Shown: piece by piece, positions 1 to 47,193 of the stretch
How the letters are laid out: each line of letters opens with the position of its first letter
How positions within the stretch are numbered: the first letter of the stretch is position 1
Origin: Ktedonobacteria bacterium
GTDB taxonomy: Bacteria > Chloroflexota > Ktedonobacteria > Ktedonobacterales > JACDGC01
Assembly (NCBI GenBank): GCA_027459705.1
Contig: DAIDHM010000072.1
Location: 1-56,082 of the forward strand
Length of the DNA: 56,082 nt
Reading direction: 5' to 3'
Translations under genes and position numbers: made by a program
Notes under the pieces: generated by a model
What the model saw: only the letters and a program-made list of their open reading frames with translations
What the model was told of the DNA's origin: nothing
Database searches by the model: none

Positions 1-2910
1 GAATCCGCAGCCAGTGGGGCGCTGGAACAACTGCGCAAACATCTCACTGCACAGGAACAGGAACACGAGCAGCACCGGGTGGCACGCGAAACGCTTTTGC
101 GTCTGCTCGGTGACCTCCGACGACAGCGTGGTGAGATCACCGCGCGCCTCCAAGGGCTGGAACGCGACCTGGCGGTCGCGCGCGAACGTCTGGCGAGCTT
201 AGAGCGCGCCGAACATGATCTGGCTGGCGAACAAGATCAGATGCGGACAGCAGTCCAGGCTGCCGCCGACCAGATTGCCCGTTTGACAGATGAGCTTGCC
301 GCCGCCGAAGCTGCGCAATCCACCGGGCAAGCAACGATCGCTGCGCTGGAATCGACAATTCATCGCGCGCGCCAGCGCCAGGAACGCGAAGATGCGCAGT
401 TGCGCACTGCCCAGCGCGACCAGATGCAAGCGCAGGCGCGCCTGGCCGCCGCGCAGAGCGAGGTGACGCGCCTCAAGCGGCAACGTGAAGATCGTCAGAC
501 AAAGCTCACCACCCACCAGACCAACGCGCTCCAGGCTACAGACCGCGCGCGCGTCGCGCAAGATCGGCTCGAGTCGCTACGCACCGCGCACGAAGGCCTG
601 CGCGCTGAATTAGGCGATCAATTGGTCGCGCGCACTTCGACCCAGGAAGCCATCGCCACCACGCAGACCGAATTGGATGAAGCGCGCTCCACCCTGGGGG
701 ATGCGCAACGCGACAGGCGTTCTTTGACAGATCGGCTGGGGTTGCTCCGCGAATGGGCGGCGTCCCAGCAAGAGGGCGCGGCCCTGCTGACGGCATGCGC
801 GGAGTTGCCCGTCGCGGAACGGCCAGAACTGCTAGGGGAGATGGCCGAACTGGCTCGCATTTCGCCAGAGCGCGAGCTCGCGCTGGAGGCCGCGCTGGGC
901 TCCTTCCTGCACGCCATTGTGGCCGCCAGCGAGGATGATGCCTGGCGCGCCGCGCAGGTGGCGCATGACCGTGGGCTGGGGCGCGTCCGCATTATCTGGC
1001 CAACGTCCGATGTGGCGAACGAAACAGCGACGCTGGCAGCACAACTGGATACCACAACCAGCCCAGCTGTATCAGCGACTGTGAACAGTTTGTTGCAGGG
1101 CATGCGCATCGTCGATGCCGACACTCCGGACGCACTGCGCTGGCACCTGCACACCACACCGGTCGTGACAATTCGCGGGGATGTGGCTCACCCCGCTGGC
1201 TGGCTCGTCACTGGTCAGGTAGTGGACGAGGGCAGCGAGAGCGCGCTGGCCCGCGCCCGCGAACTCCGCGCGATCCCCGAGCGCGTGGCCGCGCTCGAAG
1301 AACAGATTCGCCTCTTCGAAGGTTTGGTGACAAATACCCGCGCCGTCCTCGAAGAACAGCGCGCGACCGCACAGGCGGTCGAGAAAGCCATCAAAAGCCT
1401 GGAGGCGCGGCTGGCGGATCAGGCGAAAGCGCTGGGGCAGGCGCAGCGCGATGCAGAGAAAATGACGGGCGAGGCTCAGATTCAGCAAGCCGTCGAAGGC
1501 CAACTGTCGGCAGAACTGGTCGCGTTGGATGACGAGATCGCCGCCGCGGATGAGCGCTATGGCGAGGCCCAAGCCGCACAGCGCGACCTGGCAGACGCGC
1601 TGGACGGCATCCAGGAGGAAGCTGCGGTGGCGCAAAGCGAACTGCGCGCGCGACAAGAAGAATTGACGCAACACCGCACCACACTCGCCGTGAAACAGAA
1701 TGAAGCAAAATCGCTAGCCGAACGCCTGGCCATCGCCCGTGATCAGCAACGGGACCTGGCCGTTCAGGAAGATCGCCGCGCCGGTCGGCTGGGCGAGTTG
1801 CGACAGCAACGCGAAGATGTCGGCAGGGCGATTGCGCGCTATGAACAGGAATTAGCGGAGGCGCGGGTTATCGCCCAGACTCTGACGCGCGAACTGCAAT
1901 CCCATGAAGCGGATTCCTCATCCCATGATCATCGCGCCAGTGAGTTGGAGGCCGCGCTCGCCGCTGGCCGTGTTGAGTTGACACAGCGCGAGGCGGATTA
2001 CCGGCGCGCGTTGCTCGAAGCGCAACGGACACGCGACGCGGTCGAGACACTGCGCGGTCAGATGGCGGAGGAGATGGATGAGGCGGACTTCAAGGCCATC
2101 GTTGAACGCGACCAGGTTGAAGGCGACCCCATCCCCGCTGATGAGGTGACGAAGACCCGCCGCCAGATCGACAGCCTTCGTGGCCGTCTCAAATCCCTCG
2201 GCGGCTTTGATCCGGAAGCGCCGCGCGCGTATGAAGAACTAAAGGCACGCTATGAGTTCTTGACGTCCCAGGTCCGCGATATGGAAGAGGCGTCGGCCCG
2301 ACTGCGCGCCGTGATCCTGGAACTTGATCAGACCATGCGACGACGATTCGAGGAGACGTTTCATGCCGTGAATGAGCGCTTTCAGCGCCATTTCGTCACG
2401 CTCTTCCAGGGTGGCGCGGCGCGTTTGGAATTGACTCCGGCACGCGGCAGCGGGTCACCTGGTCGCGCAGCGAAGAACGAGGATCCTGAGGCAGCCTCTG
2501 ACCATTCGTCGGAGGAGGGCGAAGAAGGGCCAGCCGAGATCGGGGTGACGAAACGAGGTATGACTGGTGGCATTGAGGTTATCGTGCAGATACCCGGCAA
2601 AAAAGTACAGGATCTGACACTGCTCTCAGGCGGTGAGCGCGCGATGGTCTCAGCCGCGCTGCTTTTCGCACTCCTCGAGACCAATCCTCCCCCATTTTGC
2701 CTGCTCGACGAGGTGGATGCCGCGCTCGATGAAGCCAATGTCGTACGATTTTGCGAGATTTTAAAGATTCTGGCAACCCAAACCCAATTTATTGTCATCA
2801 CCCATAACCGCGTCACCATGACCAACACCGGCACGCTGTACGGCGTCTCGATGGCGGAAAGTGTCTCGCGTATCCTCTCGATGCGCATGGCGGAAGAACG
2901 GAGCGCCTGA
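1..2910 (+). CDS. smc: Chromosome segregation protein SMC, 5'-truncated by the window edge (frame is open from nt 1)
   Basis: About 940 aa of Ala/Glu/Arg/Leu/Gln coiled-coil ending in the ABC-like C-terminal head: signature 'LSGGERAMVSAALLFAL', Walker B 'CLLDEVDAALD', D-loop and 'FIVITHN'. An acidic low-complexity insert (~aa 800-840 of the ORF) sits just before the signature motif. Confidence 0.9.
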   Translation, partial: ESAASGALEQLRKHLTAQEQEHEQHRVARETLLRLLGDLRRQRGEITARLQGLERDLAVARERLASLERAEHDLAGEQDQMRTAVQAAADQIARLTDELAAAEAAQSTGQATIAALESTIHRARQRQEREDAQLRTAQRDQMQAQARLAAAQSEVTRLKRQREDRQTKLTTHQTNALQATDRARVAQDRLESLRTAHEGLRAELGDQLVARTSTQEAIATTQTELDEARSTLGDAQRDRRSLTDRLGLLREWAASQQEGAALLTACAELPVAERPELLGEMAELARISPERELALEAALGSFLHAIVAASEDDAWRAAQVAHDRGLGRVRIIWPTSDVANETATLAAQLDTTTSPAVSATVNSLLQGMRIVDADTPDALRWHLHTTPVVTIRGDVAHPAGWLVTGQVVDEGSESALARARELRAIPERVAALEEQIRLFEGLVTNTRAVLEEQRATAQAVEKAIKSLEARLADQAKALGQAQRDAEKMTGEAQIQQAVEGQLSAELVALDDEIAAADERYGEAQAAQRDLADALDGIQEEAAVAQSELRARQEELTQHRTTLAVKQNEAKSLAERLAIARDQQRDLAVQEDRRAGRLGELRQQREDVGRAIARYEQELAEARVIAQTLTRELQSHEADSSSHDHRASELEAALAAGRVELTQREADYRRALLEAQRTRDAVETLRGQMAEEMDEADFKAIVERDQVEGDPIPADEVTKTRRQIDSLRGRLKSLGGFDPEAPRAYEELKARYEFLTSQVRDMEEASARLRAVILELDQTMRRRFEETFHAVNERFQRHFVTLFQGGAARLELTPARGSGSPGRAAKNEDPEAASDHSSEEGEEGPAEIGVTKRGMTGGIEVIVQIPGKKVQDLTLLSGGERAMVSAALLFALLETNPPPFCLLDEVDAALDEANVVRFCEILKILATQTQFIVITHNRVTMTNTGTLYGVSMAESVSRILSMRMAEERSA

Positions 2911-3307: not shown

Positions 3308-3474
3308 GAAGTCAGAACCATGTACACAGACCGCTCCATGTTCCCAATTTTACCCATGAGTCCTAGCCCGATCATAATGAGATTTGGCCATGATTTGCTC
3401 GTGGCTCCTTGCTCTTGTACGATAGCGATCCAGGGCCCCTGACGGGGGAGCAGTAGTGCGCTTGGCGCGAAGGG

Positions 3475-6400
3475 ATGCCGCGGATGGTGACAGACCGGGC
3501 GAACGTATTGGGACCAGTATCCATCTTGGTCAGTACGGAGTTGCAGCGCAAATTGAAGGCTGCCCTATCGCCGCTGGCACCTGATCTGGCTGGGATGTTA
3601 GCGGTACTGAACACGCAGCGTGGTGTCCCCGTTCTGGTGGAAGAGGTCGTCCAGCATCACCCACATTTCCTCTTTGGCGCTGGCCCACTCTGTCTGGTAG
3701 CGCAACCCGCTGGGGAAGCGGCATCTTTCACCACAACTGAGTTGCGTCCTCTGAAATTGCCCGAACAGCACCGCTTCGCCCGCGAGGCCCTCTGGGTCCA
3801 TGCTGCGGACTGGCAGATCGCGGATCCACGCGAAGCACTCCCGCTCCGCGAGGCCCAGAAGGCCGTCACCACGCTCCTCGAGATGTGGCGGCAGGCGTCG
3901 GCACCGGATCGGAACCGATCTACCCAGCACCCTGGCCACCAGGCGACGGCAATCCCCCCTATCGCGACACATGAGCGGTATCTGGAACGCCTCGATGGGT
4001 TAATCTCACTCTCGCGTCGTCTGGAACAAGATCGACTTCTGGAGACAGTAGGTGGCGCATCATTCGCATATCTGACGGCGGAGCCCGAACCCGAGCTACA
4101 TCGCTGGCTCTTGATCTGCGCGCCAGAGGCCCCACGTCCGAGGATCCGCGATCGAGTGCGCTTGCGTGATGCCCCAACCTTGCGTGGGGTGATCGTTGGT
4201 CAAACACGCCAGGGGGTAATCGTTGAATTTTCCGCAGGTCAGGCCCTGACCGTCGCAGACATCCCCACACCAGGTTGGCTGGAATTATTACCCTCCGTCG
4301 CCCAGTTCAACATACAACGCGAGGCAGTGGCGACCCTCCGCGCTGGCGGGTCCAGTAATCCACATCTGCTGGACATTTTTGTCGATCATCGCTATCAGCC
4401 ACTGCGGAAAGCACATAAAGGCGCAGATTCACCGGTCGATCTCGATCCAGACCAACTTGCCGCCTGGAAGGCGGCTCAGACGATTCCCGATGCATTGCTC
4501 GTTCTGGGTCCACCAGGCACCGGCAAAACGCATACGATCGCCCATATCACCAGCACGATGGCGGCGCGCGGGCAACGCATCTTGATAACCGCGCGCACGC
4601 ATCGCGCGGTCGATAACGCCCTTGAACGACTGAGCGCAATACCTGGGCTGAGGATTATCCGCGCGGGCCAGAGCGACCGCGTGGCTCCAGGTTTGCGCCA
4701 TCTCTTATTAGACGCCCAGACTCACGCGACCCGCGCGACAATTCTGGAGCGCGTGGACGAATCATTACGTCGCATGTCGCAGGCATTGGCTCATCTGGAG
4801 GCCGCCAAGCCGGTCGCGACAGCAGATGACTCAGACGCCGAGGTCGCCACCATCGCCGCGCGCATTCGTTCAACCGAGGTCGCGCTCCTGGCGGCACAAA
4901 CAGAGATAGATCGTCGCTATGGCATTCCCCAGCGTTTGTGGGAGACAGAGCTGGCGGACGAAATCGATCACCTTCGGACTACCGATGCCGCGCTCGCGGA
5001 TCTCGCGGCTCTCCAGGCCGATCTCCATGCGCGCCGCGCACGACCCTTCATCGGGCTCTGGTGGGCCATTGCCGAGGCACGAGTGGCACGACGCCTGCGG
5101 CGCGATCAGCAACGACGATCGCGGCACTCGCAGGCGTTGCTCGACCGCGCTCAGGAATATTTTGCCGTGCGCGCGCAACATGCGGCGGCATTACAACATC
5201 CCGATCTGGCTGAGTTCGCTCAGTCACTGGCAGATGATCGTGCGCTGTTAGCGCAACGTACGGGCGATCAACGATCCTGGTTGGGTGACATGGATGCTGT
5301 GCTGGCTCCGATTAGCAGCGACCGACCGGAATGGGATCCTGCGCGCGGTGGCGATATCCGAACCTATCAGGTCTGGGCGCATGATCTCATCCCCGTGTTG
5401 CGTCAGCGTCTGGCCATCATGCGGACATGGCGGAGCGCGGTGGCGGAGGATGCCGATACCCTGGTGCCGTTGCTGATCGAGAACGCTGATGTCGTCGGCG
5501 CGACCTGTATTGGCATCGCCACGACTCGCGATCTCCCAGATGAAGAATTCGATCTGGTGATTGCCGATGAAGCCGGCCAGATTGGGCTGGTGGATCTGTT
5601 GGTACCGCTCGTGCGGGCACGCCGCGCGATCCTGGTCGGCGACCATCAACAATTGCCGCCCTTCGTCGCAGATGAGATCCAACAATGGCTCACCGAGCAC
5701 ACTGGTGTGATTGCGGATGATCTCTTACGGGCCGTTGGCGATCTGCTCACCAAGAGCGCCTTTGAATTGCTGTTTCCGCGCGCTGAACCCAACCACCGCG
5801 TCTTGCTGACCCAGCAGAAACGCATGCCGCGGGTCATCGCCGATTTTCTCGCGACGCAATTCTATGGCAATCAGTTGCGATCGCCAATCGAAACAGATCC
5901 ACCAGCGACCTCTCCAGTATTAGCAGCGCCGCTGACGCTGGTCGATACCAGCGATCGTCCGCGGCCTGCCCGCGCCGAGAGTGTTGTGGGTGGTCAGGAT
6001 GCCAGCGATGCGCATGGGTATCGCAATGAGATCGAAGCTGCGTTGGTGGCCGATCTCGTCGACGCTTATGCCGGTCGCAAACTGGATTGGGTAGTCATCA
6101 CTCCCTATCAGGCACAGGCCGAGCGGGTGCGCGAACTCCTGCGGCAACGACTGCCAAACCTTTCCCTGGCGGAACTCCTCGAACGCGTGGCGACCGTCGA
6201 TTCCTTCCAGGGTGGCGAACGTGATTACGTCTTCTTCAGTTTCACGCGCTCCAATGCCAACGGCAATGTCGGGTTCCTGCGTGAACTGCGGCGGTTGAAT
6301 GTGACGATGTCGCGCTCCCGGCGGCAATTGATCTTAGTCGGTGATTTCCCTGGTCTCTGTGCGGCCAATGACGCAGGTTTTCAGCGTTTGGCGCGCGCGT

Positions 6401-6489
6401 TAGTCGACTATGTGCAACAACATGGCGAACGAGTGCGTTCGACCGAAGTTCCGGCACGGATCGCCGCATTGAGGGAGATGGCGCGGTGA
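3475..6489 (+). CDS. Superfamily 1B (Upf1/DNA2/NAM7-like, AAA_11 + AAA_12) helicase with ~330-aa N-terminal domain of unknown function
   Basis: Walker A 'LVLGPPGTGKTHTIAHI', Walker B 'LVIADEAGQI', motif III 'GDHQQLPP', motif IV 'QQKRMPRVIADF', motif V/VI 'VDSFQGGERDYVFFSFTRSN...MSRSRRQLILVGD'. The ATG at 3484 (MVTDR...) has better SD spacing than 3475, so the true start may be 3484. Confidence 0.85.
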   Translation: MPRMVTDRANVLGPVSILVSTELQRKLKAALSPLAPDLAGMLAVLNTQRGVPVLVEEVVQHHPHFLFGAGPLCLVAQPAGEAASFTTTELRPLKLPEQHRFAREALWVHAADWQIADPREALPLREAQKAVTTLLEMWRQASAPDRNRSTQHPGHQATAIPPIATHERYLERLDGLISLSRRLEQDRLLETVGGASFAYLTAEPEPELHRWLLICAPEAPRPRIRDRVRLRDAPTLRGVIVGQTRQGVIVEFSAGQALTVADIPTPGWLELLPSVAQFNIQREAVATLRAGGSSNPHLLDIFVDHRYQPLRKAHKGADSPVDLDPDQLAAWKAAQTIPDALLVLGPPGTGKTHTIAHITSTMAARGQRILITARTHRAVDNALERLSAIPGLRIIRAGQSDRVAPGLRHLLLDAQTHATRATILERVDESLRRMSQALAHLEAAKPVATADDSDAEVATIAARIRSTEVALLAAQTEIDRRYGIPQRLWETELADEIDHLRTTDAALADLAALQADLHARRARPFIGLWWAIAEARVARRLRRDQQRRSRHSQALLDRAQEYFAVRAQHAAALQHPDLAEFAQSLADDRALLAQRTGDQRSWLGDMDAVLAPISSDRPEWDPARGGDIRTYQVWAHDLIPVLRQRLAIMRTWRSAVAEDADTLVPLLIENADVVGATCIGIATTRDLPDEEFDLVIADEAGQIGLVDLLVPLVRARRAILVGDHQQLPPFVADEIQQWLTEHTGVIADDLLRAVGDLLTKSAFELLFPRAEPNHRVLLTQQKRMPRVIADFLATQFYGNQLRSPIETDPPATSPVLAAPLTLVDTSDRPRPARAESVVGGQDASDAHGYRNEIEAALVADLVDAYAGRKLDWVVITPYQAQAERVRELLRQRLPNLSLAELLERVATVDSFQGGERDYVFFSFTRSNANGNVGFLRELRRLNVTMSRSRRQLILVGDFPGLCAANDAGFQRLARALVDYVQQHGERVRSTEVPARIAALREMAR

Positions 6490-7751
6490 CCTTCGGACCA
6501 AACGAGAACGATTACCTCCTCCCCTACAGCCCTCTGACGGCGCTGGATCGGCTCGATGAAGCGGGCAATGGACAACCGCTCTATCTGTGGCGGCTACTCT
6601 ATCCAGTCTGGATCGTCGAGATTCCTGGCACGCGCATCGTCCGGCGCGATCTTGCGCCGTTCGAAGCAACCATCCTCCACGCGGTCCGCGAAGGCGGCGC
6701 GCAAACGACAGCGGATCTGGCCGCCATGCTCGGTATCGATGCTGATCTGCTCGATCGCGTACTCCTGGTGCAACAGCGCATTGGGCATCTCGGCCGTGAT
6801 AGCGCGGGACGACTGACAATGGGACGATTGGGCGCAAACTCGTTGCGCGACGGTGTCAGTTATCGTCGCGAGGAAGGCGCCAATGGCACGATGATCTTTG
6901 ACGCCTTTACACAAACCCCACTGCCCGATATGTATGGCCCCGAGATGCTGATAACCACGGACCAGCTGGATCAGCCAGCGGCGGCACGCTTCTTGATACC
7001 CCTCTGCGCGCGTCACTGGGATAATGCCGCATTGCGACCGGTCATCACGTCCCGAACGCTCCCCGAAGTCACCCCCCGCGCCGCATACCTCCCACTCTAT
7101 CTGGTCGAGACAACCGGTCCAAAAAATAGCGTGGCGTGCACCGCCACCCCTGACCGTATCGATACCACGCTGTCCACGATCATCGCCACTGCGAAGAAAC
7201 AGGACGCATTTCTTGCCGCGGCGCTGACCTACGATATTGCCGTTGCACGCGCCACCGCCAGTGCCTGGCTGACGCAGCGCGGTTTGTTGACCGCGTCTGT
7301 CACCCGCACAGCAGGCGGGGAATGGCGCGCCGAGTTGCCGCCCGATCTGCTCAAGCGTGGGCAGGGTGGCATGTCATTAGCGCGTTTGGGAACATATGAA
7401 TTGATCCAAGACCCGGCTGGCGGCGTAGTCTGCCTGCGCATCTGGTGCGCGGATCGCACCATGCGACATGCGGCGGCGGAAGCTCAGGTCAAAGCCCAAC
7501 AGGCTCGCCGACCTCAGACAGGCGCCGCCGGAGCCGGTGCGCACTCATCATCACCACTCGCCGAAACCACTTTCTCGACAATGCTGGCGCGACGTCTCAT
7601 CAGTCTCGAAGCTACGAACGATTCTCTGCCACATCCGCAGGGTCCGGTGCCTCCAGATAGCCTGGTGCCGCCGCCGAATAGTCCGGTTCCACAACCATCA
7701 CCGTCAGCGCCTGCCATGCCTTCACGGCGGCGCAAGCCGGAGCGCAATTGA
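6486..7751 (+). CDS. Hypothetical protein, translationally coupled to the helicase; N-terminal winged-HTH-like segment, Pro-rich C-terminus
   Basis: GTG start overlaps the helicase stop (GTGA). Long ORF with no in-frame ATG nearby. 'TTADLAAMLGIDADLLDRVLLVQQRIGHL' resembles an HTH. The C-terminal 60 aa are Pro/Ser-rich. No homology recognised by eye. Confidence 0.55.
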   Translation: MTFGPNENDYLLPYSPLTALDRLDEAGNGQPLYLWRLLYPVWIVEIPGTRIVRRDLAPFEATILHAVREGGAQTTADLAAMLGIDADLLDRVLLVQQRIGHLGRDSAGRLTMGRLGANSLRDGVSYRREEGANGTMIFDAFTQTPLPDMYGPEMLITTDQLDQPAAARFLIPLCARHWDNAALRPVITSRTLPEVTPRAAYLPLYLVETTGPKNSVACTATPDRIDTTLSTIIATAKKQDAFLAAALTYDIAVARATASAWLTQRGLLTASVTRTAGGEWRAELPPDLLKRGQGGMSLARLGTYELIQDPAGGVVCLRIWCADRTMRHAAAEAQVKAQQARRPQTGAAGAGAHSSSPLAETTFSTMLARRLISLEATNDSLPHPQGPVPPDSLVPPPNSPVPQPSPSAPAMPSRRRKPERN

Positions 7752-7819: not shown

Positions 7820-9208
7820 TTAACTGCCGATACTGGGAGTGTAATTGAAATCACTGAACGTGACCGTTCCGGCGCCAGCCGAACCAGCAAACATGACGAG
7901 GTCCAGATAACTGGTTGTTGAGTAGGTCGCATCGTTTGCTTGCCCAACATCGCGTCCATTGATGCGCATCGTCAGGGTCTGTTCGCGCATGATCGCCGCT
8001 ACCTGGTAGCTGGACGCGAGGGGTACTATGCCACTCTGGAGCGTCGTAGCCACTCCATTCTCCGCAGCAAAGCGCGCGATATACCACTCTCCCGTCTGCC
8101 CACACAGAAAAAACCCGTAGCGCCCCCCATCGTCCTGGACTCGCGTGAAGAACCCCGCACAGCCTCCGTTAAGTTGCGACACATCGATCGTCGCAGCCAC
8201 CAGGTAATTTGTTGGAAAATCGCCCACTTCACCGTAGAATCGCACCGTGCTCATAGCACTGGCTTGGGGAGACTGCGATATGCGCAACCCTGTTGGGGAG
8301 CAACTGAACTGAGTCAATGCGCCTACCCTGGCTGGCGCTGGCCAGAAAGCGCCACCTTGATCGCAGCCAGGCCCGGGAACAGGCGCGCTATAGGTGGGTG
8401 TGCCGACACCACCACTGGCAGTTGGGGTTGACGCGCTATTCCCCAGGGCGGTTCCAGCTGCTGAAGAGCCTGGTGTTACAGTGACTTCCGTCGCAACGCC
8501 CAGCGGCTGGTAGGTAAAATGATCAAAGAGCGCGGTCGTCGGTTGACCTACATCGCGCGCTACGAGAGCAATGCTGCTGGTCGTCAAATAAGTAGGGTCA
8601 GCCGTGCTACCCAGCAGTGTCCCATTCAAGGAGAGCGTGATAATTGGCCCATTCACCTCAACGGTAAGCTGTGGGTTTGTGGGCATTTGGGCCACCATCC
8701 CAATCGCCAGTCGCTGAGTCTTGCCCGCACTCGTGAAGCGTGTGATCATCCACATGCCATTGCGCGCAATCTCAAGGATTTGGCCGCCTCGCGGTGTCTG
8801 GCGATGCACTTCGATGCCAACGCTGGCAGTAGGCGAGCCAGCAGTGATCCGCGCGTCAACCGTCACACGGTAACGCGCGTCAAACCGCCCACCTCCCGGT
8901 GTCGCATAAAAGACTTCTGCATAGCGACCATCTGTTGCGCCAGCATCTAATTGCATCCCTTCAGTTGTACAGGACACGGTTGCCTGTGCGTCTGTCGCGA
9001 GAAACCAGTTGCCGCCATGATCCACGCAATGGGGGCCTGGCACCCCAATTGAGTACGCGGTATCCTTGTAGCTTGTCGACGGCTTTAACGTCACCGCGAT
9101 CGCCGCAACCGCGACGATCACAATGATGATCGTCGCGCCCAGTAACAGCACCGCCGTCGGCGATAATGTTTTCCGTCCCATGTTCCCCACAATCCAACGC
9201 TGCGGCAT
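7820..9208 (-). CDS. Membrane-anchored or secreted protein with two tandem copies of an unknown ~150-aa beta-rich domain
   Basis: N-terminal hydrophobic anchor 'AVLLLGATIIIVIVAVAAIAV'. Two internally similar halves ('...RFYGEVGDFPTNYLVAA...DGGRYGFF...' and '...RYAEVFYATPGGGRFDARYRV...'). Function unknown. Confidence 0.55.
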   Translation of the reverse strand: MPQRWIVGNMGRKTLSPTAVLLLGATIIIVIVAVAAIAVTLKPSTSYKDTAYSIGVPGPHCVDHGGNWFLATDAQATVSCTTEGMQLDAGATDGRYAEVFYATPGGGRFDARYRVTVDARITAGSPTASVGIEVHRQTPRGGQILEIARNGMWMITRFTSAGKTQRLAIGMVAQMPTNPQLTVEVNGPIITLSLNGTLLGSTADPTYLTTSSIALVARDVGQPTTALFDHFTYQPLGVATEVTVTPGSSAAGTALGNSASTPTASGGVGTPTYSAPVPGPGCDQGGAFWPAPARVGALTQFSCSPTGLRISQSPQASAMSTVRFYGEVGDFPTNYLVAATIDVSQLNGGCAGFFTRVQDDGGRYGFFLCGQTGEWYIARFAAENGVATTLQSGIVPLASSYQVAAIMREQTLTMRINGRDVGQANDATYSTTSYLDLVMFAGSAGAGTVTFSDFNYTPSIGS

Positions 9209-9452: not shown

Positions 9453-11264
9453 TTACGGTGTAGCAGTTGGCTTAGGGACTGTTGGTGTAGCCGTCACCCC
9501 TGTCCCCACCGACGTCGCTGTCGGAACTATAGTGGGGGTGGCAGTAGGTTGCAGTGTGGATATCGTTGGGGTGGCCGTCGCCTGCGGGGTCGCAGTGGGC
9601 ACAGAGACCGGGCCGATGCTTACATAGACCGTGACAATCGTATTTGGGGAGACCTGGTCACCAATCTGAGGCGAGGTCTTCACGACCAGGCCAACCGGTA
9701 CCGCCTGGTCATTGATCGGGCTGGTAACACAGACTAAGTTCCCCGGATTGCCCGCGCTATCCTGCGCGGCTTTGATCGCGGCGCACGCTTGATCGGCAGT
9801 GAGATTAGCCACTGCTGGGATTGTCACCGTATTAGGGCCGATCCCAACATAGACATTGACACTTCCCCCGGGGGCCAGCGCCGTCCCAGCCGCAGGATCC
9901 TGTCGTAGAATGAGTCCAATCTGCGCCTTGGTACTGGTCGTATCATGCTGGACCAGATGGATATTATCCGTCTGCGCGAGCTGAACGGCATCTGGCTGAT
10001 ACATCTTGTTGGTAAAATCAGGTACAGTGATCGTCTGTGGAGTCGATGTACTCGAGGTTGAGGAGCCAAAGGGATTGATAAATTTATAGGTCACGAAGCA
10101 CCCAACCGCCAACAAGAGCAAGACTGAGGCGACAATAATTGCGGTAGTAATCCCTGCGACCGGCGCGGGTGTATCCTCTTCACCAAGCGCGGGAACGGGC
10201 ATGACACCCGCTGCCACATCCGGTCTGGTCGGACCTGGCATAATAAAATCTTCACTCAACGCGCGCGGGTCTTCCCAACTACTGGGGGTATCCGCACGTG
10301 GGCGTGCACCACTCGGTCCACGTCCACTTGTAGATTGCAGCGCGCCAGAGGGCGTGCCGCGGAACGCTCCCCCATTGGGAGGCATCTCGCCTGGTGGCAT
10401 ATCCAGCGGAGTGGCCATACGTCCAGAGTTCGTACGCGGCCTATCAAACGACTCTAATGCATAGGCCAGCGCATCGCCATCGCGATATCGATCGCGCGGA
10501 TCTTTTTCCAGACAGCGCATGATCACGCGTTCCAGCCCTGGAGGAATCGCCGGATTATAGCGGCTGGGGCGGATCGGCACCTCTTGAATATGTCGGACGG
10601 CGATTGAGACGGGGGTATCACCATCGAATGGTGGATGTCCAACGAGCATCTCGTAGAGCACAATACCCAGGGCATACACATCGGCGGCGGGAGTGACCAC
10701 TTCGCCCTGAGCCTGCTCTGGCGCGTAATATTGCACGGTACCCAGAGTCATGCCTGTGGTGGTCAGGCGTTCTGAATTGACATCACGGTAGAACGTCGCG
10801 ATGCCAAAGTCCGTCAGCTTCACCAGCCCTTCATCGTTGACCAGGATATTTTGCGGTTTGACATCACGATGGACGATGCCGCGCCGATGGGCGGCGCCCA
10901 GCGCCAGGGCGACGTCATGGCCAATGACGACCGCGCGTCGAATATCCAGAATACCATTGGCGCGCAGATATTTGCGGAGATCAACGCCTTCGATTAACTC
11001 CATAACGATGAAATATTCTTCACCACTCTGGCCATAGTCGAAGACTTGCACTATATTTGGATGTGCCAACGCCGAGACAGCGCGAGCTTCGCGCTGAAAG
11101 CGCAAAACAAACTTGGGATCGTTGGAATACATCTCACGGAGAATCTTCACCGCAACGGGGCGACCCATACGACGATCCTGCGCGCGAAAGATGGTTGCCA
11201 TACCGCCACGACCGATTGGTTCGATGAGCTCGTAGCGGTCTCCCAAGACTTTTATATCATCCAT
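9453..11264 (-). CDS. pknB: Ser/Thr protein kinase, PknB-like: Hanks kinase domain, TM segment, extracellular PASTA repeats, Thr/Pro-rich tail
   Basis: 'IGRGGMATIFRA...VAVKIL', catalytic loop 'HRDVKPQNIL', 'DFG', 'APE'. Followed by a TM helix 'ITTAIIVASVLLLLAVGCFV', two PASTA-like units and a 'TATPQATATPTIS...' tail. Confidence 0.9.
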   Translation of the reverse strand: MDDIKVLGDRYELIEPIGRGGMATIFRAQDRRMGRPVAVKILREMYSNDPKFVLRFQREARAVSALAHPNIVQVFDYGQSGEEYFIVMELIEGVDLRKYLRANGILDIRRAVVIGHDVALALGAAHRRGIVHRDVKPQNILVNDEGLVKLTDFGIATFYRDVNSERLTTTGMTLGTVQYYAPEQAQGEVVTPAADVYALGIVLYEMLVGHPPFDGDTPVSIAVRHIQEVPIRPSRYNPAIPPGLERVIMRCLEKDPRDRYRDGDALAYALESFDRPRTNSGRMATPLDMPPGEMPPNGGAFRGTPSGALQSTSGRGPSGARPRADTPSSWEDPRALSEDFIMPGPTRPDVAAGVMPVPALGEEDTPAPVAGITTAIIVASVLLLLAVGCFVTYKFINPFGSSTSSTSTPQTITVPDFTNKMYQPDAVQLAQTDNIHLVQHDTTSTKAQIGLILRQDPAAGTALAPGGSVNVYVGIGPNTVTIPAVANLTADQACAAIKAAQDSAGNPGNLVCVTSPINDQAVPVGLVVKTSPQIGDQVSPNTIVTVYVSIGPVSVPTATPQATATPTISTLQPTATPTIVPTATSVGTGVTATPTVPKPTATP

Positions 11265-11760: not shown

Positions 11761-14049
11761 TCATTGCCGATAGACCTGTTTGCTAGCCAGGTAGTCGACG
11801 AGAAGATAGCGGCCCAGATCATCCGGTGTTGTAATGAACGCTCGGCCTTTATTGATCGCTGACATCTCCTGCACAAATTCGATCAAAGACGCATCGTGCA
11901 CCAACATGAAGGTGTTGATTCGGATGTTATCTTTCGTACAGCGATTGACCTCCAGTAAAGTTTGCTCCTGGGCCAAATCGGTGTACGGATAAGTAAAGAG
12001 CCAGCGCTCCGTCTCCTTGTCCCACATCACTGTCGGTCCGCCATCCGTCACCATGATCACCTGGCGATTGACCCCTTTGTGCTTATTCAGCAGTTGGCGC
12101 GCGAGCATCAGCCCATGCACCATATTCGTCCCCTGCGCATGGTCCATCTCGCTGATCTCGACCAACTCATCGCGTTTGAACTCGCGCGCCAGCGCCGAGA
12201 AACCTACGACGTACAAGTTGTCGCGGGGAAACTGGCCACGGATCAGGGACTCCAATGCCACAGCAACCTTTTTGGCTGATTGGTACGCCCCACTGTAAAA
12301 CATTGACATCGACATATCGATCATCAGGACAGTGGAAGATGCGGTCATCATTTCTGTACGATAGACTTCGAAATCCTCCGCTTGCAACTGGACGGGGGAT
12401 CCAGAACCCTGTCGCTCAATCGCGTGCATCAGCGTTCCATGAAGATCCAGCAAGAAGGGATCGCCAAAATCATAGGATTTCGTCTCATCGGTCTTCTCGC
12501 CACCAATACCGCGTTGCTCCATCGCATGTTGTCCAAATGCGTCGCGGTCCAACTGGTCGAACATATCGCGCAACGCCTTCTGGCCAACCTTGCGGATACC
12601 GGCGGAGGTTAACTGCCAGCGGTTGCCTTTGCGAGTGATATAACCAGCATCCTCGAGTTCTTTGAGCATCTGCTTCAACTCGTCGACCGCGGCGCCCTCT
12701 TCCTGGCCCAACAGGTTCCGTACAGCATCAGCATCGACCCCATCCATGTTTCCCTGGCGGCGGGCGGCGTTCATCTGGGATTCCAGTTCATCCAATCCCT
12801 GGAGCTCACCCATCAAGCGCATAGCCTCAGTCAGTGACACCGACTCATCGCCTTGCATGCGAAATCTGGTTTTGAAATCGTTCGGGCCTTGTTGAGCGAT
12901 ATGCTGGGAAAGTTCCGCCAGATCAACCCGCATACGGTCATCGCCGACCAACTGGTCCATCATTTCCTGCAATTGCTCGCGCTGTTCCTCGGACATCGAA
13001 TCCATGATGGCTTCCATTGCCGCCATGCGCCTCTGAAGATCCTCGATCAGGTCATCGAGCGTGTTGACATCATTGCCAAAGAAATCGCCATACTTCCGCA
13101 TGAAGTTGTCGAAGTCAGGCTCTTTCCCCGCTTCGCGATCGCGTAACATCTGATTCAGTTCGCGAATCATGTCGCGCATACGCGCCAGTTCTTCCGGCGA
13201 CATCTGCGAAAGTGCCTGTTGCATGCCCTGGAAATACTGCTGCATGACCTGCTGTTGCAACATCTGCAACAGTTCTTGGAATTCATCGCGCGCTTGGGGA
13301 TCCATGAAATCATACGATGAGAGTTCGCGGATCTGTCCCGCCGTATCTTTGGGGAGACTGTCGAGATACTCCTGCTTGCGCTGCGCGATCTGCTCTAATG
13401 CTCGACGCAACGCCTGACGGTCCAGTCCGTCGGGCATGTCATGTTGTTGCCCCTGTTGCCCTTGCTGGCTCTGCTGCCCGCCCTGACCTGGCTGACCTTG
13501 CTGACCTTGCTGCCCGCGCTGACCTGGCTGCCCTTGTTGGCTCTGCTGGCCCTGCTGCATTCGCTGGCCTGGCTGACCTTGCTGGCTCTGGGGATCCTGC
13601 TGGCTCTGGGGATCCTGCTGGCCTTGAGCATCCTGGTCTGGGGTTTCGGACGCGGATTCAGGCTTGGGTTGGTTGGTCTCATCGAGTCGCCGTTGGATGC
13701 CCTCGCGTTCGTGCTGTTTGATAGCATCCAGCTTCTGGCGTATATCATCCATCACGCCATTCAGATTATACCTTTGCATGCGCTGATTCTGTTGTGACCG
13801 CAGGCGCTCCATGATATCACGGAGGCCCATGACACGCTGACCATCGCGGCCCTGAAAGCCAAATTGCTGTAGACGTTGCAAGGCACTGCGCACATCGGTA
13901 TCGCGGAGGTAGTCGTCCGCCATGGCATTGAGGATATCGTCGGCATCCAGCCCTTCGATCTGCTGCGAGCCATCCCAGCGGGAATAACTATGGCGCCGAT
14001 TGAAGAAAAATCGTTTGAACATCTCGAACCCTTTCCGCCAGGAGAACAC
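11761..14049 (-). CDS. von Willebrand factor A (VWA) domain protein with long Gln/Gly/Pro-rich low-complexity linker; partner of the upstream ChlI-like ATPase
   Basis: C-terminal VWA with MIDAS 'DMSMSM...VVGFS...VTDGGPT'. The central ~75-aa 'QGQQDPQSQQGQPGQR...' segment is encoded by CAG/CTG-rich imperfect DNA repeats (13440-13640). This is the ChlD/CobT-style architecture, but without the N-terminal AAA module. Confidence 0.8.
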   Translation of the reverse strand: MFSWRKGFEMFKRFFFNRRHSYSRWDGSQQIEGLDADDILNAMADDYLRDTDVRSALQRLQQFGFQGRDGQRVMGLRDIMERLRSQQNQRMQRYNLNGVMDDIRQKLDAIKQHEREGIQRRLDETNQPKPESASETPDQDAQGQQDPQSQQDPQSQQGQPGQRMQQGQQSQQGQPGQRGQQGQQGQPGQGGQQSQQGQQGQQHDMPDGLDRQALRRALEQIAQRKQEYLDSLPKDTAGQIRELSSYDFMDPQARDEFQELLQMLQQQVMQQYFQGMQQALSQMSPEELARMRDMIRELNQMLRDREAGKEPDFDNFMRKYGDFFGNDVNTLDDLIEDLQRRMAAMEAIMDSMSEEQREQLQEMMDQLVGDDRMRVDLAELSQHIAQQGPNDFKTRFRMQGDESVSLTEAMRLMGELQGLDELESQMNAARRQGNMDGVDADAVRNLLGQEEGAAVDELKQMLKELEDAGYITRKGNRWQLTSAGIRKVGQKALRDMFDQLDRDAFGQHAMEQRGIGGEKTDETKSYDFGDPFLLDLHGTLMHAIERQGSGSPVQLQAEDFEVYRTEMMTASSTVLMIDMSMSMFYSGAYQSAKKVAVALESLIRGQFPRDNLYVVGFSALAREFKRDELVEISEMDHAQGTNMVHGLMLARQLLNKHKGVNRQVIMVTDGGPTVMWDKETERWLFTYPYTDLAQEQTLLEVNRCTKDNIRINTFMLVHDASLIEFVQEMSAINKGRAFITTPDDLGRYLLVDYLASKQVYRQ

Positions 14050-14115
14050 CGGAAAAACACGGGTGGGTGAAGGGCGTCGCTCCGACCTTCACCCGGTGTG
14101 GAGAAGCGCCGCGCC

Positions 14116-15525
14116 TCAGCGGTCGCGCCGGTAGCGGAAAGCCCCTTCACTGGTGTCTTTATTCAAGCGCTTCTTCAGATGCAGACCTTCCAGGATGAAT
14201 TCCACGGCGGATGCCACCGAAGCCGGGCTCCCATGACCTTTGAGCTTCGTGACCGCCGCCTCAAGTCCGCCAACTCGCGAGAGCTGCGTGACATATTCCA
14301 TCGACGGCTGCATATCAGCGGCGTGCACATTCATGCCTCGCTCGAAACCCGCGACCAATTGATCGAACTCCGGCTGATCGAAATAGCGATCGAAGACAAT
14401 GACGATCGACTGGTTGATGAGTTTCTGGATAATCTTATCTTCGCGCGCATCACCCAGGGTATCCATCTCAATCTTGCCAGCTGTGCTGGAGATGACCGCT
14501 GGCAGATCGCTCACGCGTGGCACTGCCGTGCGCTCCTTGAGCCGCAGAGCACGTCGAATCGCGTTGCTGGCGACATTCTCATAATTGGTGATTGAGATTC
14601 GGACACTGACCCCGGAACGCTGGCTGATGTCCGAACTCTTGCGCGCCTGATGTGTGATCTGGGCGATGATCTCTTTCATGAAGCGCGGATAGACCAGCTC
14701 AACACCATCAACGACTTGAGGCGCCGCCTCGGCTTCCATGATCGCGATCTCCTGATCGATCGCTTTGGGATAATGCGTGCGAATCTCCGAACCGATGCGG
14801 TCTTTCAACGGTGTAATGATACGACCGCGATTGGTGTAGTCTTCCGGGTTGGCGCTGGCGACAACAAAGACATCGATCGGCAGTCGGATTTTATACCCGC
14901 GGATCTGCACATCGCGCTCTTCCATGATGTTCAGGAGTCCGACCTGAATGCGCTCTGCCAGGTCAGGCAACTCATTCAGACAGAAGATACCGCGATGTGT
15001 CCGTGGCACCATGCCATAATGGATGGTCAATTCATCAGAGAGATAGCGTCCCTCAGCGACTTTGATGGGGTCCACCTCGCCGATCAGATCAGCGATGGTG
15101 ATATCGGGTGTGGCCAACTTCTCGCCATAGCGGCGATCCCGTGGAAGCCACGCAATCTCCACTTCATCGCCCTGCTCCGCGACTTTGGCACGGCAAGCGG
15201 CGCAGATCGGATGTAACGGATCATCATTGATCTCGCAGCCAGCGATCATGGGAATCTCTGGGTCCAGTAATTGCACCAGGCTACGCGCGATGCGGGTCTT
15301 CGCCTGGCCGCGCTCTCCCAGGAGAACGATATCTTGCCCGGAGAGGATGGCGTTTTCGATCTGCGGTATGACAGTCTCCTCATAGCCAACGACGCCAGGA
15401 AAGAGCTCCTGGCCGTCGCGGACGAGGCGTACGAGATTAGCGCGCATCTCTTCTTTGACAGTGCGCGACTGGTAGCCGCTCGCCCGTAAGGCACCAATAG
15501 TACGCGGTTGCGTGCTGGTTGCCAT
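14116..15525 (-). CDS. AAA+ ATPase, Mg-chelatase ChlI/BchI-like (MoxR-related)
   Basis: 'FPGVVGYEETVIPQIENAILSGQDIVLLGERGQAKT' parallels the ChlI N-terminus and Walker A. Walker B 'IFCLNELPD', sensor-1 'VVASANPEDY', Arg-finger region 'PLKDRIGSEI'. Confidence 0.75.
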   Translation of the reverse strand: MATSTQPRTIGALRASGYQSRTVKEEMRANLVRLVRDGQELFPGVVGYEETVIPQIENAILSGQDIVLLGERGQAKTRIARSLVQLLDPEIPMIAGCEINDDPLHPICAACRAKVAEQGDEVEIAWLPRDRRYGEKLATPDITIADLIGEVDPIKVAEGRYLSDELTIHYGMVPRTHRGIFCLNELPDLAERIQVGLLNIMEERDVQIRGYKIRLPIDVFVVASANPEDYTNRGRIITPLKDRIGSEIRTHYPKAIDQEIAIMEAEAAPQVVDGVELVYPRFMKEIIAQITHQARKSSDISQRSGVSVRISITNYENVASNAIRRALRLKERTAVPRVSDLPAVISSTAGKIEMDTLGDAREDKIIQKLINQSIVIVFDRYFDQPEFDQLVAGFERGMNVHAADMQPSMEYVTQLSRVGGLEAAVTKLKGHGSPASVASAVEFILEGLHLKKRLNKDTSEGAFRYRRDR

Positions 15526-15747
15526 GTGATGAGATATCTCCTTTTTTGCTTGGGGGAACGTGACACCGCGTCGCTGTCAGCGAAGGAGGAGCGGCGGAAG
15601 GCACGTGGGAACGCGACCGGTTGCGCGGAGCAACGCGAACGCCAATGAACGATTCGTTCGCACATCATCATGCTCGTCTTTCATTGTATCGCGCTCTCCA
15701 GGATAGGGGCAAGTCGGAAATCTGGCCAGGTAGTCCCAGTGCGCCCG

Positions 15748-16632
15748 TTACACGTCCCAGGCGCGCCGCAAGAGTAGCGCGTAGCGCTCACGCGTGGCAG
15801 CGTCGACACGGGCGCGATCCGTGATCACGGCGCTGGTCAGCGCGGTCGCGCAGGGGCAAGACCAGGTGCTGTGTGTCGCTGGCAACTGCGCGACGACCAG
15901 GCGAACAATATCCTGGGCATGGGCGACATTGCGCATGAGATTGCCAACCACGAGGTCGACGTTGACTGCTTCCTCTGTCGCATGCCAAACATCATAATCT
16001 GTCACGCAGGCGATGGTCGCATAATGCATCTCTGCCTCACGTGCCAGCTTGGCCTCGGGCAGCGCCGTCATGCCAATAATATCCATCCCCCAGGATCGGT
16101 AGACCCGCGACTCAGCGCGTGTCGAGAACTGCGGCCCTTCGATGCAGATATAGGCGCCGCCGCGATGTATTGTCGCCGCGCCACTGGCTTCGCCGGCGGT
16201 GGCGATCAGGTCGCTCAGATGTGGGCAGAAAGGATCCGCAAAGGCGATATGCGCCACCAATCCGCCCTCAAAGAACGACGCTACGCGGCCTCTGGTGCGG
16301 TCGAAGATCTGATCAGGGATGACCAGATCCAACGGTGCGATCTCTTCGCGTAAGCTGCCGACCGCACTGACCGAGAGCACATATTCCACACCCAGCGACT
16401 TCAAGGCCCAGATGTTGGCACGCGCGGGTATCTCACTGGGACTCAAGCGGTGGCCCTGACCATGGCGAGGCAGAAAGGCGACGGGAATATCAGCCAGATT
16501 CCCCAGGATAATCGCGTCGCTTGGTTCGCCGAAAGGGGTCGTGATCGTTGTCGATGCGAGCGCCGTCATCTCTGCCATCTGATAGAGACCGCTACCACCA
16601 ATAATCCCAACCCGAGCGTGTGGGGTCCTCAT
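15748..16632 (-). CDS. mtnP: S-methyl-5'-thioadenosine phosphorylase (PNP family 2)
   Basis: 'VGIIGGSGLY...PFGEPSD...LPRHGQGHRLSPSEIPARANIWALKSLGV...GPQFSTRAESRVYRSWGMDIIGMT...ACVTDYD' are hallmark MTAP motifs. Confidence 0.9.
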   Translation of the reverse strand: MRTPHARVGIIGGSGLYQMAEMTALASTTITTPFGEPSDAIILGNLADIPVAFLPRHGQGHRLSPSEIPARANIWALKSLGVEYVLSVSAVGSLREEIAPLDLVIPDQIFDRTRGRVASFFEGGLVAHIAFADPFCPHLSDLIATAGEASGAATIHRGGAYICIEGPQFSTRAESRVYRSWGMDIIGMTALPEAKLAREAEMHYATIACVTDYDVWHATEEAVNVDLVVGNLMRNVAHAQDIVRLVVAQLPATHSTWSCPCATALTSAVITDRARVDAATRERYALLLRRAWDV

Positions 16633-46739: not shown

Positions 46740-47193
46740 GATCATATCCGAAGTAATCTGTATTTTGCACAAGGTTGACTAGTAGTTGAAACGGAAAGGA
46801 TCGACCTTAAAAGTGGGTGGGTTGAACGGGATAAGCACGCTTCCAAGAAGGGTTCGGCACTAATCTGTTCGGTGGCTTGGGCCTGGAGCACCTGATTCAC
46901 CACAGTTTGCAGCACACTAGCCAAGGCAACTTCTTGTGTCAACTGGGATTGCAACTGCTCGGTTTCTTCGTTCAGATGAATCGTGGGCGGGCTTCTACTC
47001 CTACTTGGCGTTGTTCATTGCTACGAGCCTAGCAGTAGAGGCATCCCCATCTTGCGCAAATTACAGAACTTCTCGGACTCTATTTATGTATATTGCTATG
47101 AGAGTAAAATCAACTAGATCCGATCATAAATGTGTTGTATATTGTTCTTGGAGAAGTACTCCCAGGTTCTTTTTGTGTATTGGAGGTTGTGCC

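What the first reader, a model, noticed from the sequence alone, without database searches (positions are those of the whole stretch)
3475..7751. Upf1/DNA2-like SF1B helicase with novel N-terminal domain, translationally coupled to an unknown wHTH/Pro-rich protein
The helicase core is complete (all motifs intact), so it is probably active. Its first ~330 aa match nothing I recognise. Its stop overlaps the GTG start of a 421-aa protein with an HTH-like segment and a Pro-rich tail, implying stoichiometric co-expression. Two-gene modules built on Upf1-like helicases occur in several phage-defence systems (Mokosh- and Nhi-like). This pair lacks their known effector domains: no PLD motif and no recognisable nuclease motif. 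It could be an uncharacterised defence or RNA/DNA-surveillance module, or a housekeeping DNA-repair factor.
Basis: partly seen in the sequence, partly recalled or inferred. Interest (0 to 1): 0.6.

Follow-up and report, generated by a model that had tools for sequence, protein, structure and literature searches.

The report
Mokosh-like helicase pair lacking its nuclease
These two overlapping genes are a stripped-down relative of the bacterial anti-phage system Mokosh type I: they keep the helicase and the DNA/RNA-binding adaptor but have lost both the kinase and the nuclease, which raises the question of how the pair can act without an effector of its own.

Summary
A 1001/1004-aa Upf1-like SF1B helicase (3484/3475-6489) has its stop overlapped (GTGA) by the start of a 421-aa protein (6486-7751).

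Neither gene is an orphan. The helicase is an MkoA homologue (PADLOC E 4e-109). Its "novel" N-terminus matches the region that lies between kinase and helicase in canonical MkoA (hhalign 94.6%).

The partner belongs to a family of about 143 cluster representatives, mostly 370-430 aa. This family shares only the N-terminal beta-hairpin/winged-helix module of MkoB (hhalign 98%, aa 25-147) and never carries the PLD HxKx4D nuclease motif.

In all 20 loci examined, the partner sits directly downstream of this helicase type. In 13 of 17 loci with enough upstream DNA, a third gene precedes them. It encodes a (pseudo)kinase-like domain. Among the upstream proteins scanned, its N-terminal part is trypsin (sometimes with Trypco1/Pepco), PNP, NERD, SEFIR/TIR or nothing recognisable. 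This is the pattern of a modular immune system.

The window's clade (window, L001, L002/3) lacks that gene. Even so, it is under purifying selection (dN/dS 0.13-0.18) and occurs in two different genomic contexts.

Verdict: a new, effector-less variant of a known kind (Mokosh type I). Its mechanism is unresolved.

The parts
3349..3378 (+). Promoter-like site (TTTACC-18-CATAAT) in the 177-nt gap between csaA and the helicase gene. A weak consensus match only.
   Evidence: 3 sites found against 1.4 expected in shuffles
3484..6489 (+). MkoA-like Upf1-type SF1B helicase without a kinase domain. It is 1001 aa from the ATG at 3484; the longest ORF starts at 3475.
   Evidence: (PADLOC MkoA PDLC03920, E 4e-109, aa 236-985 against profile 532-1103/1112)
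3655..4386 (+). N-terminal region (aa ~61-304) homologous to the segment between the Ser/Thr kinase and the helicase core of canonical MkoA. No Pfam or PDB sequence match.
   Evidence: hhalign prob 94.6%, E 6.5e-8, 221 columns; L004 and L009 helicases match the MkoA profile from position ~321-338
4507..4530 (+). Walker A / motif I, GPPGTGKT (aa 345-352)
   Evidence: invariant in 6 helicases
5566..5580 (+). Motif II, DEAGQ (aa 698-702)
5749..6345 (+). RecA2 half of the helicase (Pfam AAA_12, aa 759-957), including TVDSFQGGE and motif VI
6470..6489 (+). Coupling junction: GAGGGAG Shine-Dalgarno, then GTGA in which the partner's GTG start overlaps the helicase TGA stop
   Evidence: the same overlap occurs in L001, L002, L004 and L008
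6486..7751 (+). PLD-less MkoB-like partner, 421 aa
6558..6926 (+). MkoB-type N-terminal module (aa 25-147): beta-hairpin, winged helix (aa 58-112 = 6657-6821), helix, beta-hairpin. This is the only part shared with canonical MkoB.
   Evidence: hhalign prob 98%, E 2e-13
6927..7505 (+). Family-specific middle/C-terminal domain (aa 148-340). It is confidently folded, has no significant PDB or viral structural match, and has no catalytic-looking conserved motif.
7638..7748 (+). Disordered Pro-rich, basic tail (aa 385-421). It is specific to the window/L001 lineage; other family members have a helical C-terminus here. Its constraint is relaxed (dN/dS 0.36).

Best explanation
The pair is a reduced member of a distinct branch of Mokosh type I anti-phage systems.

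Shown: gene 1 is an MkoA-type Upf1-like helicase that starts at the MkoA middle region, so the Ser/Thr kinase domain is absent. Gene 2 keeps only the N-terminal beta-hairpin/winged-helix module of MkoB. In place of the PLD nuclease it carries an unrelated domain that looks non-catalytic. The two genes are always adjacent and usually overlap. Both are under purifying selection.

In most relatives a third, upstream gene supplies a kinase-like (mostly pseudokinase) domain. The upstream proteins scanned carry trypsin, PNP nucleosidase, NERD or SEFIR/TIR domains at the N-terminus, or no recognised domain. The window lacks this gene.

Inferred: helicase plus partner form a stoichiometric sensor core. 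The wHTH module docks the partner on the helicase and/or on nucleic acid. The ATP-driven 5'-3' helicase surveys phage RNA or replication intermediates. In the three-gene forms this core licenses the tethered effector.

In the window's two-gene form, the output would be either direct ATP-dependent interference (stripping or stalling on foreign nucleic acid) or signalling to an effector encoded elsewhere in the genome.
For: - PADLOC hits: MkoA 4e-109 and MkoB 6e-8. All 95 full-length family members hit MkoB PDLC03922, best E 9e-20, covering only profile positions ~5-256 of 610.
- hhalign: partner family against 8 canonical MkoBs gives 98% over aa 25-147 only. Helicase N-terminus against canonical MkoA mid-region gives 94.6%.
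- PLD motif: HxKx4D was found at ~395-432 in 5 of 8 reference MkoBs. Across the 145 family sequences held there were only two matches, at non-equivalent positions in P0022 and P0104, which I take to be chance.
- Adjacency: the helicase is immediately upstream in 20/20 loci (3 truncated at a contig end).
- Third gene: present in 13/17 loci with enough upstream DNA. It has a shared ~280-aa kinase-like domain and a variable N-terminal domain (Trypsin_2 with or without Trypco1, PNP_UDP_1, NERD, SEFIR/TIR).
- Intermediate form: Azospirillum L021 has a fused kinase-helicase with a PLD-less partner.
- Selection, window vs L001: dN/dS 0.125 for the helicase and 0.18 for the partner, against 0.10 for SMC.
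- Mobility: the pair sits in different contexts in L002/L003 and on an Azospirillum plasmid.
- Published background: Mokosh type I = STK-helicase + PLD, and both the helicase ATP site and the PLD site are required for defence (10.1101/2022.05.11.491447).
Against: - There is no experimental evidence of defence for this branch.
- The window's module has no effector and no kinase gene in 56 kb. The only kinase is a PASTA-type PknB.
- The neighbours look housekeeping (smc, csaA, pknB), and PADLOC flags no defence genes nearby.
- In canonical Mokosh the PLD site is essential, so a PLD-less, effector-less form has no precedent for activity.
- Physical interaction of the two proteins is inferred from gene overlap only.
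- The partner family's own HMM matches canonical MkoBs only weakly (E 1e-5 to 1e-14, N-terminus only).
Confidence: 0.6

Rival explanations
1. Housekeeping nucleic-acid remodelling factor: an Upf1/IGHMBP2-like helicase with a wHTH cofactor, used for RNA quality control, R-loop or replication-conflict resolution, or DNA repair in this lineage. It would have been recruited from a Mokosh ancestor but would no longer be immune.
For: It lies between smc/csaA and pknB and is not in a recognisable defence island. It has no effector domain. Purifying selection is as strong as on SMC. The same synteny is kept in L001.
Against: The family is rare and patchy: 3 close proteins in 5.8 billion, and 143 cluster representatives in 1.84 billion. 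The context differs in L002/L003. Relatives are wired to trypsin/Pepco, PNP, NERD and TIR/SEFIR effectors, and some lie on plasmids.
Confidence: 0.2
2. Orphaned sensor module: a remnant of the three-gene system after loss of the kinase-effector gene. It would be either non-functional or working with an unlinked effector encoded elsewhere in the genome.
For: 13 of 17 related loci have the upstream kinase-effector gene, and the window clade does not. The partner's C-terminal helical segment, present in the three-gene forms, is replaced here by a fast-evolving Pro-rich tail.
Against: All helicase motifs are intact. dN/dS is 0.13-0.27 across three genomes that have diverged to ~50% identity and carry the pair in two contexts, which argues against decay. 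No candidate partner gene was found in the 56-kb window. The whole genome could not be searched.
Confidence: 0.15
3. Two functionally independent genes that merely abut: a generic SF1 helicase followed by a MarR-like transcription factor.
For: The only structural match of the partner is wHTH transcription-factor folds.
Against: The order and overlap of the genes are conserved in 20/20 loci across Chloroflexota, Actinomycetota and Pseudomonadota. Helicase subclade and partner type co-vary: the best helicase relatives all carry the PLD-less partner. The partner is ~400 aa with additional conserved domains.
Confidence: 0.03

Closest known systems
Mokosh type I (MkoA + MkoB; Millman et al. 2022, 10.1101/2022.05.11.491447). 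Reference loci here: L011 (Streptomyces plasmid NZ_CP107773.1) and L012 (Agrobacterium pAtCFBP5877b).
   Same: Two adjacent, overlapping genes in the same order. The Upf1-like COG1112 helicase core and the pre-helicase middle region are homologous to MkoA. The N-terminal beta-hairpin/wHTH module of the second protein is homologous to MkoB.
   Different: No Ser/Thr kinase domain on the helicase: the match starts at MkoA profile position 532 of 1112, whereas L011/L012 match from position 5-7. No PLD domain or HxKx4D motif on the partner; L011 MkoB has PLDc_2 at aa 327-424. In this branch the kinase-like domain is usually a separate upstream protein, fused in the cases scanned to other effector domains. 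In the window it is absent altogether.
Mokosh type II (MkoC, e.g. E. coli YjhR)
   Same: Upf1-like helicase core (PADLOC MkoC E 3.6e-27).
   Different: Type II is one polypeptide with a C-terminal PLD nuclease. Here there are two proteins and no PLD.
Eukaryotic Upf1-like SF1B helicases (IGHMBP2/SMUBP-2 4b3f, DNA2 5eax, UPF1 2xzo, Sen1, Aquarius, ZNFX1)
   Same: The helicase core is similar in sequence (E 2e-35 to 1e-12), with all motifs present.
   Different: The N-terminal region is unrelated (no CH domain, no DNA2 nuclease). There is a long helical insertion between motifs Ia and II. It has a dedicated wHTH partner.
Nuclease-NTPase defence pairs (Hachiman HamAB, Gabija GajAB, Nhi-like; 10.1101/2025.07.10.664194)
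   Same: The logic of a helicase/NTPase sensor co-expressed with a smaller partner that forms a complex with it.
   Different: In those systems the partner is the nuclease effector. Here the partner has no nuclease or other catalytic signature. PADLOC hits to GajB and Hhe are marginal and limited to short stretches of the helicase core, mostly around the P-loop; the window helicase gives no Nhi hit.
Protease-Pepco (Trypco1) and other effector cassettes of NTP-dependent conflict systems (PMC7159879; 10.1101/2025.11.14.688446)
   Same: Relatives L009/L014 carry Trypsin_2, with Trypco1 in L009 only, upstream of the helicase-partner core. L015 carries SEFIR/TIR, and the Streptomyces loci carry PNP.
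   Different: These cassettes are absent from the window. In the relatives they are fused to a pseudokinase-like domain, and I found no description of that fusion in the searched literature.

Membership tests
Mokosh type I | MkoA: Upf1-like (COG1112) SF1 helicase with an intact ATP site | tested here: met
   PADLOC MkoA PDLC03920 E 4e-109; AAA_11/AAA_12; Walker A and motif II intact
Mokosh type I | MkoA carries an N-terminal Ser/Thr kinase domain | tested here: not met
   No Pkinase hit on the helicase. The MkoA profile is matched only from position 532. The reference MkoAs L011 and L012 have Pkinase at aa ~16-250.
Mokosh type I | MkoA middle region between kinase and helicase core | tested here: met
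   hhalign prob 94.6%, E 6.5e-8, over window aa ~61-304
Mokosh type I | Adjacent MkoB gene downstream | tested here: inconclusive
   The partner hits MkoB PDLC03922 at E 6e-8, but over profile positions 8-124 of 610 only. hhalign gives 98% over aa 25-147 only. The proteins are homologous in one module and not full-length.
Mokosh type I | MkoB has a PLD nuclease domain with an HxKx4D active site (required for defence) | tested here: not met
   No PLDc Pfam hit. No conserved HxKx4D motif in the partner family; the window protein has none. The motif is present in 5 of 8 reference MkoBs, and L011 MkoB has PLDc_2.
Mokosh type I | Protects against phage | not testable with these tools
   Needs expression and phage challenge
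Mokosh type II | Single protein with N-terminal helicase and C-terminal PLD | tested here: not met
   Two separate ORFs, no PLD
Upf1-like SF1B helicases | Motifs I, Ia, II, III, V, VI with an AAA_11/AAA_12 architecture | tested here: met
PLD-less MkoB-like partner family (defined here, ~143 cluster representatives) | A ~370-430-aa protein matching the family profile full-length and lying directly downstream of an MkoA-like helicase that lacks a fused kinase | tested here: met
   Family HMM E 1.5e-82 over positions 4-349
Three-gene form of that family (effector-pseudokinase + helicase + partner) | Upstream gene with the shared ~280-aa kinase-like domain | tested here: not met
   The kinase-domain HMM hits only the PASTA kinase PknB at 9453-11264 (-) in the window. 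The gap between csaA and the helicase gene is 177 nt. The gene is present in 13/17 related loci.
Nhi / Nhi-like | Helicase fused or paired with a nuclease domain | tested here: not met
   No Nhi hit for the window helicase at E<=0.1; no nuclease domain

The most novel reading that the evidence does not exclude
The helicase plus MkoB-N-type wHTH adaptor is the conserved sensor core of a previously unrecognised, modular 'third type' of Mokosh. In this type a pseudokinase adaptor recruits interchangeable effectors (trypsin/Pepco, PNP, NERD, TIR/SEFIR) in place of the PLD nuclease. The window's effector-less two-gene form would be a self-sufficient variant that restricts invaders non-degradatively, or through an unlinked effector.
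Probability: 0.35. Interest if true: 0.7.

Novelty: new variant of a known kind. Interest (0 to 1): 0.55.

Why it matters
The mechanism of Mokosh is unknown: type I could not even be purified in a recent survey (10.1101/2025.07.10.664194).

This branch separates what is conserved from what is swappable. The conserved parts are the helicase, its pre-helicase region and the wHTH module of MkoB. The swappable parts are the PLD and the kinase-linked effectors. That points to the helicase-wHTH pair as the sensing core and gives a natural set of domain-swap variants for experiments.

The effector-less form in this window is maintained by selection in several genomes. It tests whether the sensor core alone has a function, and it would be missed by a rule that requires a near-full-length MkoB match.

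Tried and rejected
- Word-index homologue searches with the helicase N-terminus and with the family alignment returned nothing or only 4 proteins. The index is too coarse for this family; the exhaustive HMMER scan was what found it.
I used the helicase alignment instead.
- The first structure prediction, with 3 sequences, was useless (pLDDT 37.5).
- The afdb50 fold library was unavailable, so no comparison with predicted MkoB structures was possible.
- A profile of the helicase N-terminus found nothing in PDB sequences.
- The apparent helicase-partner fusion in L016 (1644-aa ORF) is a spurious out-of-frame high-GC ORF.
- The idea that the partner's C-terminal domain is a degenerate PLD is not supported: hhalign aligns only aa 25-147 with MkoB, and there is no conserved His/Lys/Asp triad.
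- The nearby PknB kinase as the 'missing' Mokosh kinase is rejected. It is a bona fide PASTA Stk1-family kinase (NCBIfam 466.6 bits, above the 450 cut-off) on the opposite strand, and nothing like it is near the pair in L002/L003.
- A literature search found no PLD-less Mokosh, 'Mokosh-like' or 'type III' description.


Full report
**1. The observation**

The helicase ORF (3475-6489) ends in TGA, and that stop overlaps the partner's GTG start at 6486 (GTGA). A GAGGGAG Shine-Dalgarno sequence lies just upstream.

The ATG at 3484 is the more likely helicase start. The 1001-aa product is the one on record in the public collection, while the 1004-aa form is not. Homologues also begin at that methionine.

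All SF1 motifs are intact. Pfam gives AAA_11 and AAA_12. The closest solved relatives by sequence are IGHMBP2, DNA2, UPF1/Nam7, Aquarius, ZNFX1 and Sen1, so "Upf1/DNA2-like SF1B" is correct.

**2. What the two proteins are**

PADLOC models identify both proteins.
- The helicase hits MkoA PDLC03920 at E 4e-109, over aa 236-985 and profile positions 532-1103 of 1112.
- The partner hits MkoB PDLC03922 at E 6e-8, but only over aa 37-154 and profile positions 8-124 of 610.
- NCBIfam places the helicase near the "PLuB system helicase-like protein", below its cut-off, and gives nothing for the partner.

The partner has only two close relatives in a 5.8-billion-protein index. An exhaustive HMMER scan of 1.84 billion cluster representatives found 143 relatives (96 at E <= 1e-10). 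Nearly all are 370-430 aa and match over aa ~10-350.
- HxKx4D matches occur in only two of the 145 sequences held, at non-equivalent positions, which I take to be chance.
- All 95 full-length members hit MkoB. They cover only the first ~125-256 positions of the 610-position profile.

I took reference type I Mokosh loci from plasmids.
- L011 (Streptomyces) has a full-length STK-helicase MkoA (E 2e-235) and a 465-aa MkoB with PLDc_2 at aa 327-424.
- L012 (Agrobacterium) is similar.

Two profile-profile comparisons then defined the shared parts.
- Partner family against eight canonical MkoBs: 98% probability (E 2e-13), restricted to partner aa 25-147. Five of the eight reference MkoBs carry HxKx4D at ~395-432.
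- N-terminal ~320 aa of this helicase subfamily against the segment between kinase and Walker A of six canonical MkoAs: 94.6% probability (E 6.5e-8) over 221 columns, window aa ~61-304. In line with this, the L004 and L009 helicases match the MkoA profile from position ~321-338, just after the kinase.

So the helicase is MkoA without its kinase, and the partner is the N-terminal module of MkoB joined to a different C-terminal part.

**3. Structure of the partner**

With the 95-sequence alignment, AlphaFold2 gives pLDDT 87.3 and pTM 0.76. The predicted elements, in order, are:
- a helix;
- a long beta-hairpin (aa 31-55);
- a winged helix (aa 58-112);
- a helix;
- a second long hairpin (aa 124-139);
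- a mixed alpha/beta region that includes a second three-helix-plus-hairpin unit (aa 227-283);
- two long helices;
- a disordered Pro-rich tail (aa 385-421).

The conserved polar positions are H101, S119, D139, D226, C321 and R327. They do not form a recognisable catalytic motif.

The Pro-rich tail is specific to the window/L001 lineage. Other members have a conserved helical C-terminus there, and the tail evolves faster (dN/dS 0.36).

**4. Genomic context across relatives**

I examined 20 loci with a full-length partner. They come from Chloroflexota (Thermogemmatispora), Actinomycetota (Streptomyces, Amycolatopsis, Dactylosporangium, Actinomadura macra), Azospirillum (one locus on plasmid AZO_p1) and metagenomes.
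- The partner is always immediately downstream of this helicase type, usually with a 1-4-nt overlap.
- The best helicase relatives in the genome scan all carry the PLD-less partner. More distant STK-fused helicases carry MkoB-type proteins that match only in the N-terminal module. Helicase clade and partner type therefore co-vary.

In 13 of 17 loci with enough upstream DNA, a gene directly upstream of the helicase encodes a shared ~280-aa kinase-like domain. Most copies have HR[A/Y/N]L instead of HRD, so they are probably pseudokinases. The N-terminal part of those proteins, where I scanned them, is as follows.

| Locus | Organism | Domain N-terminal to the kinase-like domain |
|---|---|---|
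| L009 | GCA_042408965.1 (organism not given) | Trypsin_2, with a separate Trypco1/Pepco gene |
| L014 | Thermogemmatispora | Trypsin_2 |
| L017-L019, L054 | Streptomyces | PNP_UDP_1 (scanned in L017; the other three are 73-81% identical over their full length) |
| L004 (490-aa protein) | metagenome | NERD |
| L004 (309-aa protein) | metagenome | none (kinase domain only) |
| L008 | Actinomadura macra | none recognised (385 aa) |
| L015 | Amycolatopsis | SEFIR/TIR |
| L013, L021 | Azospirillum | ~420-450 aa with no Pfam match |

In Azospirillum L021 a second kinase domain is fused to the helicase, as in canonical MkoA, yet the partner is PLD-less.

Swapping classical immune effectors on a constant core is the hallmark of a defence system family.

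The window, its close relative L001 (same smc-csaA-helicase-partner-LamG synteny) and L002/L003 have no such gene. L002/L003 have a 52%-identical partner in a different neighbourhood: AhpC, a GNAT-like 157-aa protein, PadR and an Mrr_cat-ParA protein. The only kinase in the 56-kb window is a PASTA-type PknB on the opposite strand.

**5. Is the two-gene form alive?**

Between the window and L001, dN/dS is 0.125 for the helicase and 0.18 for the partner. SMC next door gives 0.10. Against L002, the values are 0.26-0.27 at near-saturated dS.

The motifs are intact, and the pair is retained in two contexts. This argues against a decaying remnant.

**6. Mechanism**

Shown:
- both genes are homologous to Mokosh type I components;
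- kinase and PLD are absent;
- the two genes are obligately adjacent;
- both are under purifying selection;
- relatives carry modular effectors.

Inferred:
- the two proteins form a complex, based on gene overlap and by analogy with nuclease-NTPase systems, which generally co-purify (10.1101/2025.07.10.664194);
- the wHTH module mediates nucleic-acid and/or helicase binding;
- the helicase senses phage RNA or replication intermediates, which is the hypothesis proposed for Mokosh (10.1101/2022.05.11.491447).

How an effector-less pair produces an output is open. It could be direct helicase-driven interference, an unlinked effector, or a domesticated housekeeping role. I give about 0.6 to [quoted passage not shown], about 0.2 to housekeeping domestication, and about 0.15 to an orphaned module.

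**7. Novelty**

Both genes belong to known superfamilies, and the system is clearly related to Mokosh type I. However, two defining features of type I were tested and are absent: the STK on MkoA and the PLD on MkoB. It should therefore not be filed as Mokosh type I.

I found no description of a PLD-less Mokosh branch, or of the pseudokinase-effector architecture, in the searchable literature. The library is incomplete, so this is absence of evidence only. Family members that carry a source name are called "hypothetical protein".

I rate it a new variant of a known kind and of moderate interest. The family-level picture is more interesting than the window's own reduced copy.

Noticed in passing
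window 11761-16632 (- strand): Three consecutive genes: a PNP_UDP_1 phosphorylase (15748-16632), a MoxR-like AAA+ ATPase (14116-15525), and a 762-aa protein with a vWA domain and collagen-like repeats (11761-14049). This is reminiscent of the vWA-MoxR conflict systems of PMC7159879. PADLOC gives no hit. The PNP may simply be metabolic.
   Followed up: partly
window 46936-49920 (+), in the lowest-GC stretch of the window (0.505-0.52 at 46-50 kb): A 994-aa double-AAA+ (CDC48-like) ATPase. It hits the PADLOC IetA models (E 3.5e-71) and TRIP13. This is probably generic AAA+ similarity, but the drop in composition suggests acquired DNA.
   Followed up: no
window 7820-9208 (-): A 462-aa protein with a weak LamG/concanavalin-like domain, convergent with the partner gene. 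It is also conserved next to the module in L001. Its function is unknown.
   Followed up: no
window 79-2910 (+): The SMC ORF is listed as only 943 aa, starting at an internal GTG. The L001 orthologue is 1216 aa, so the gene probably starts upstream of the window.
   Followed up: partly
L018 8372-8899, L019 8315-8842, L054 8330-8857; L013 9445-10716, L021 8449-9720: Extra conserved ORFs overlap the 3' end of the partner gene: 175 aa in Streptomyces and 423 aa in Azospirillum. The two scanned (L018 and L013) have no Pfam match. They may be further system components.
   Followed up: partly
P0104 (1108 aa, metagenomic): A partner-family N-terminal region (aa 36-372) is fused to a ~700-aa C-terminal region with no Pfam match. 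This may be another effector solution within the family.
   Followed up: partly
L012 9460-11363 (Agrobacterium pAtCFBP5877b): A canonical type I Mokosh here is followed, with overlapping starts, by a PP2C phosphatase and a DUF3800 protein. This suggests phosphorylation-based regulation in some canonical systems. This MkoB has no HxKx4D motif and no Pfam PLD hit.
   Followed up: no
L002 7934-9232 / L003 6740-8038 (- strand): An Mrr_cat restriction-nuclease domain fused to a ParA/MipZ-like ATPase lies three genes from the helicase-partner pair. It may mark a defence neighbourhood.
   Followed up: no
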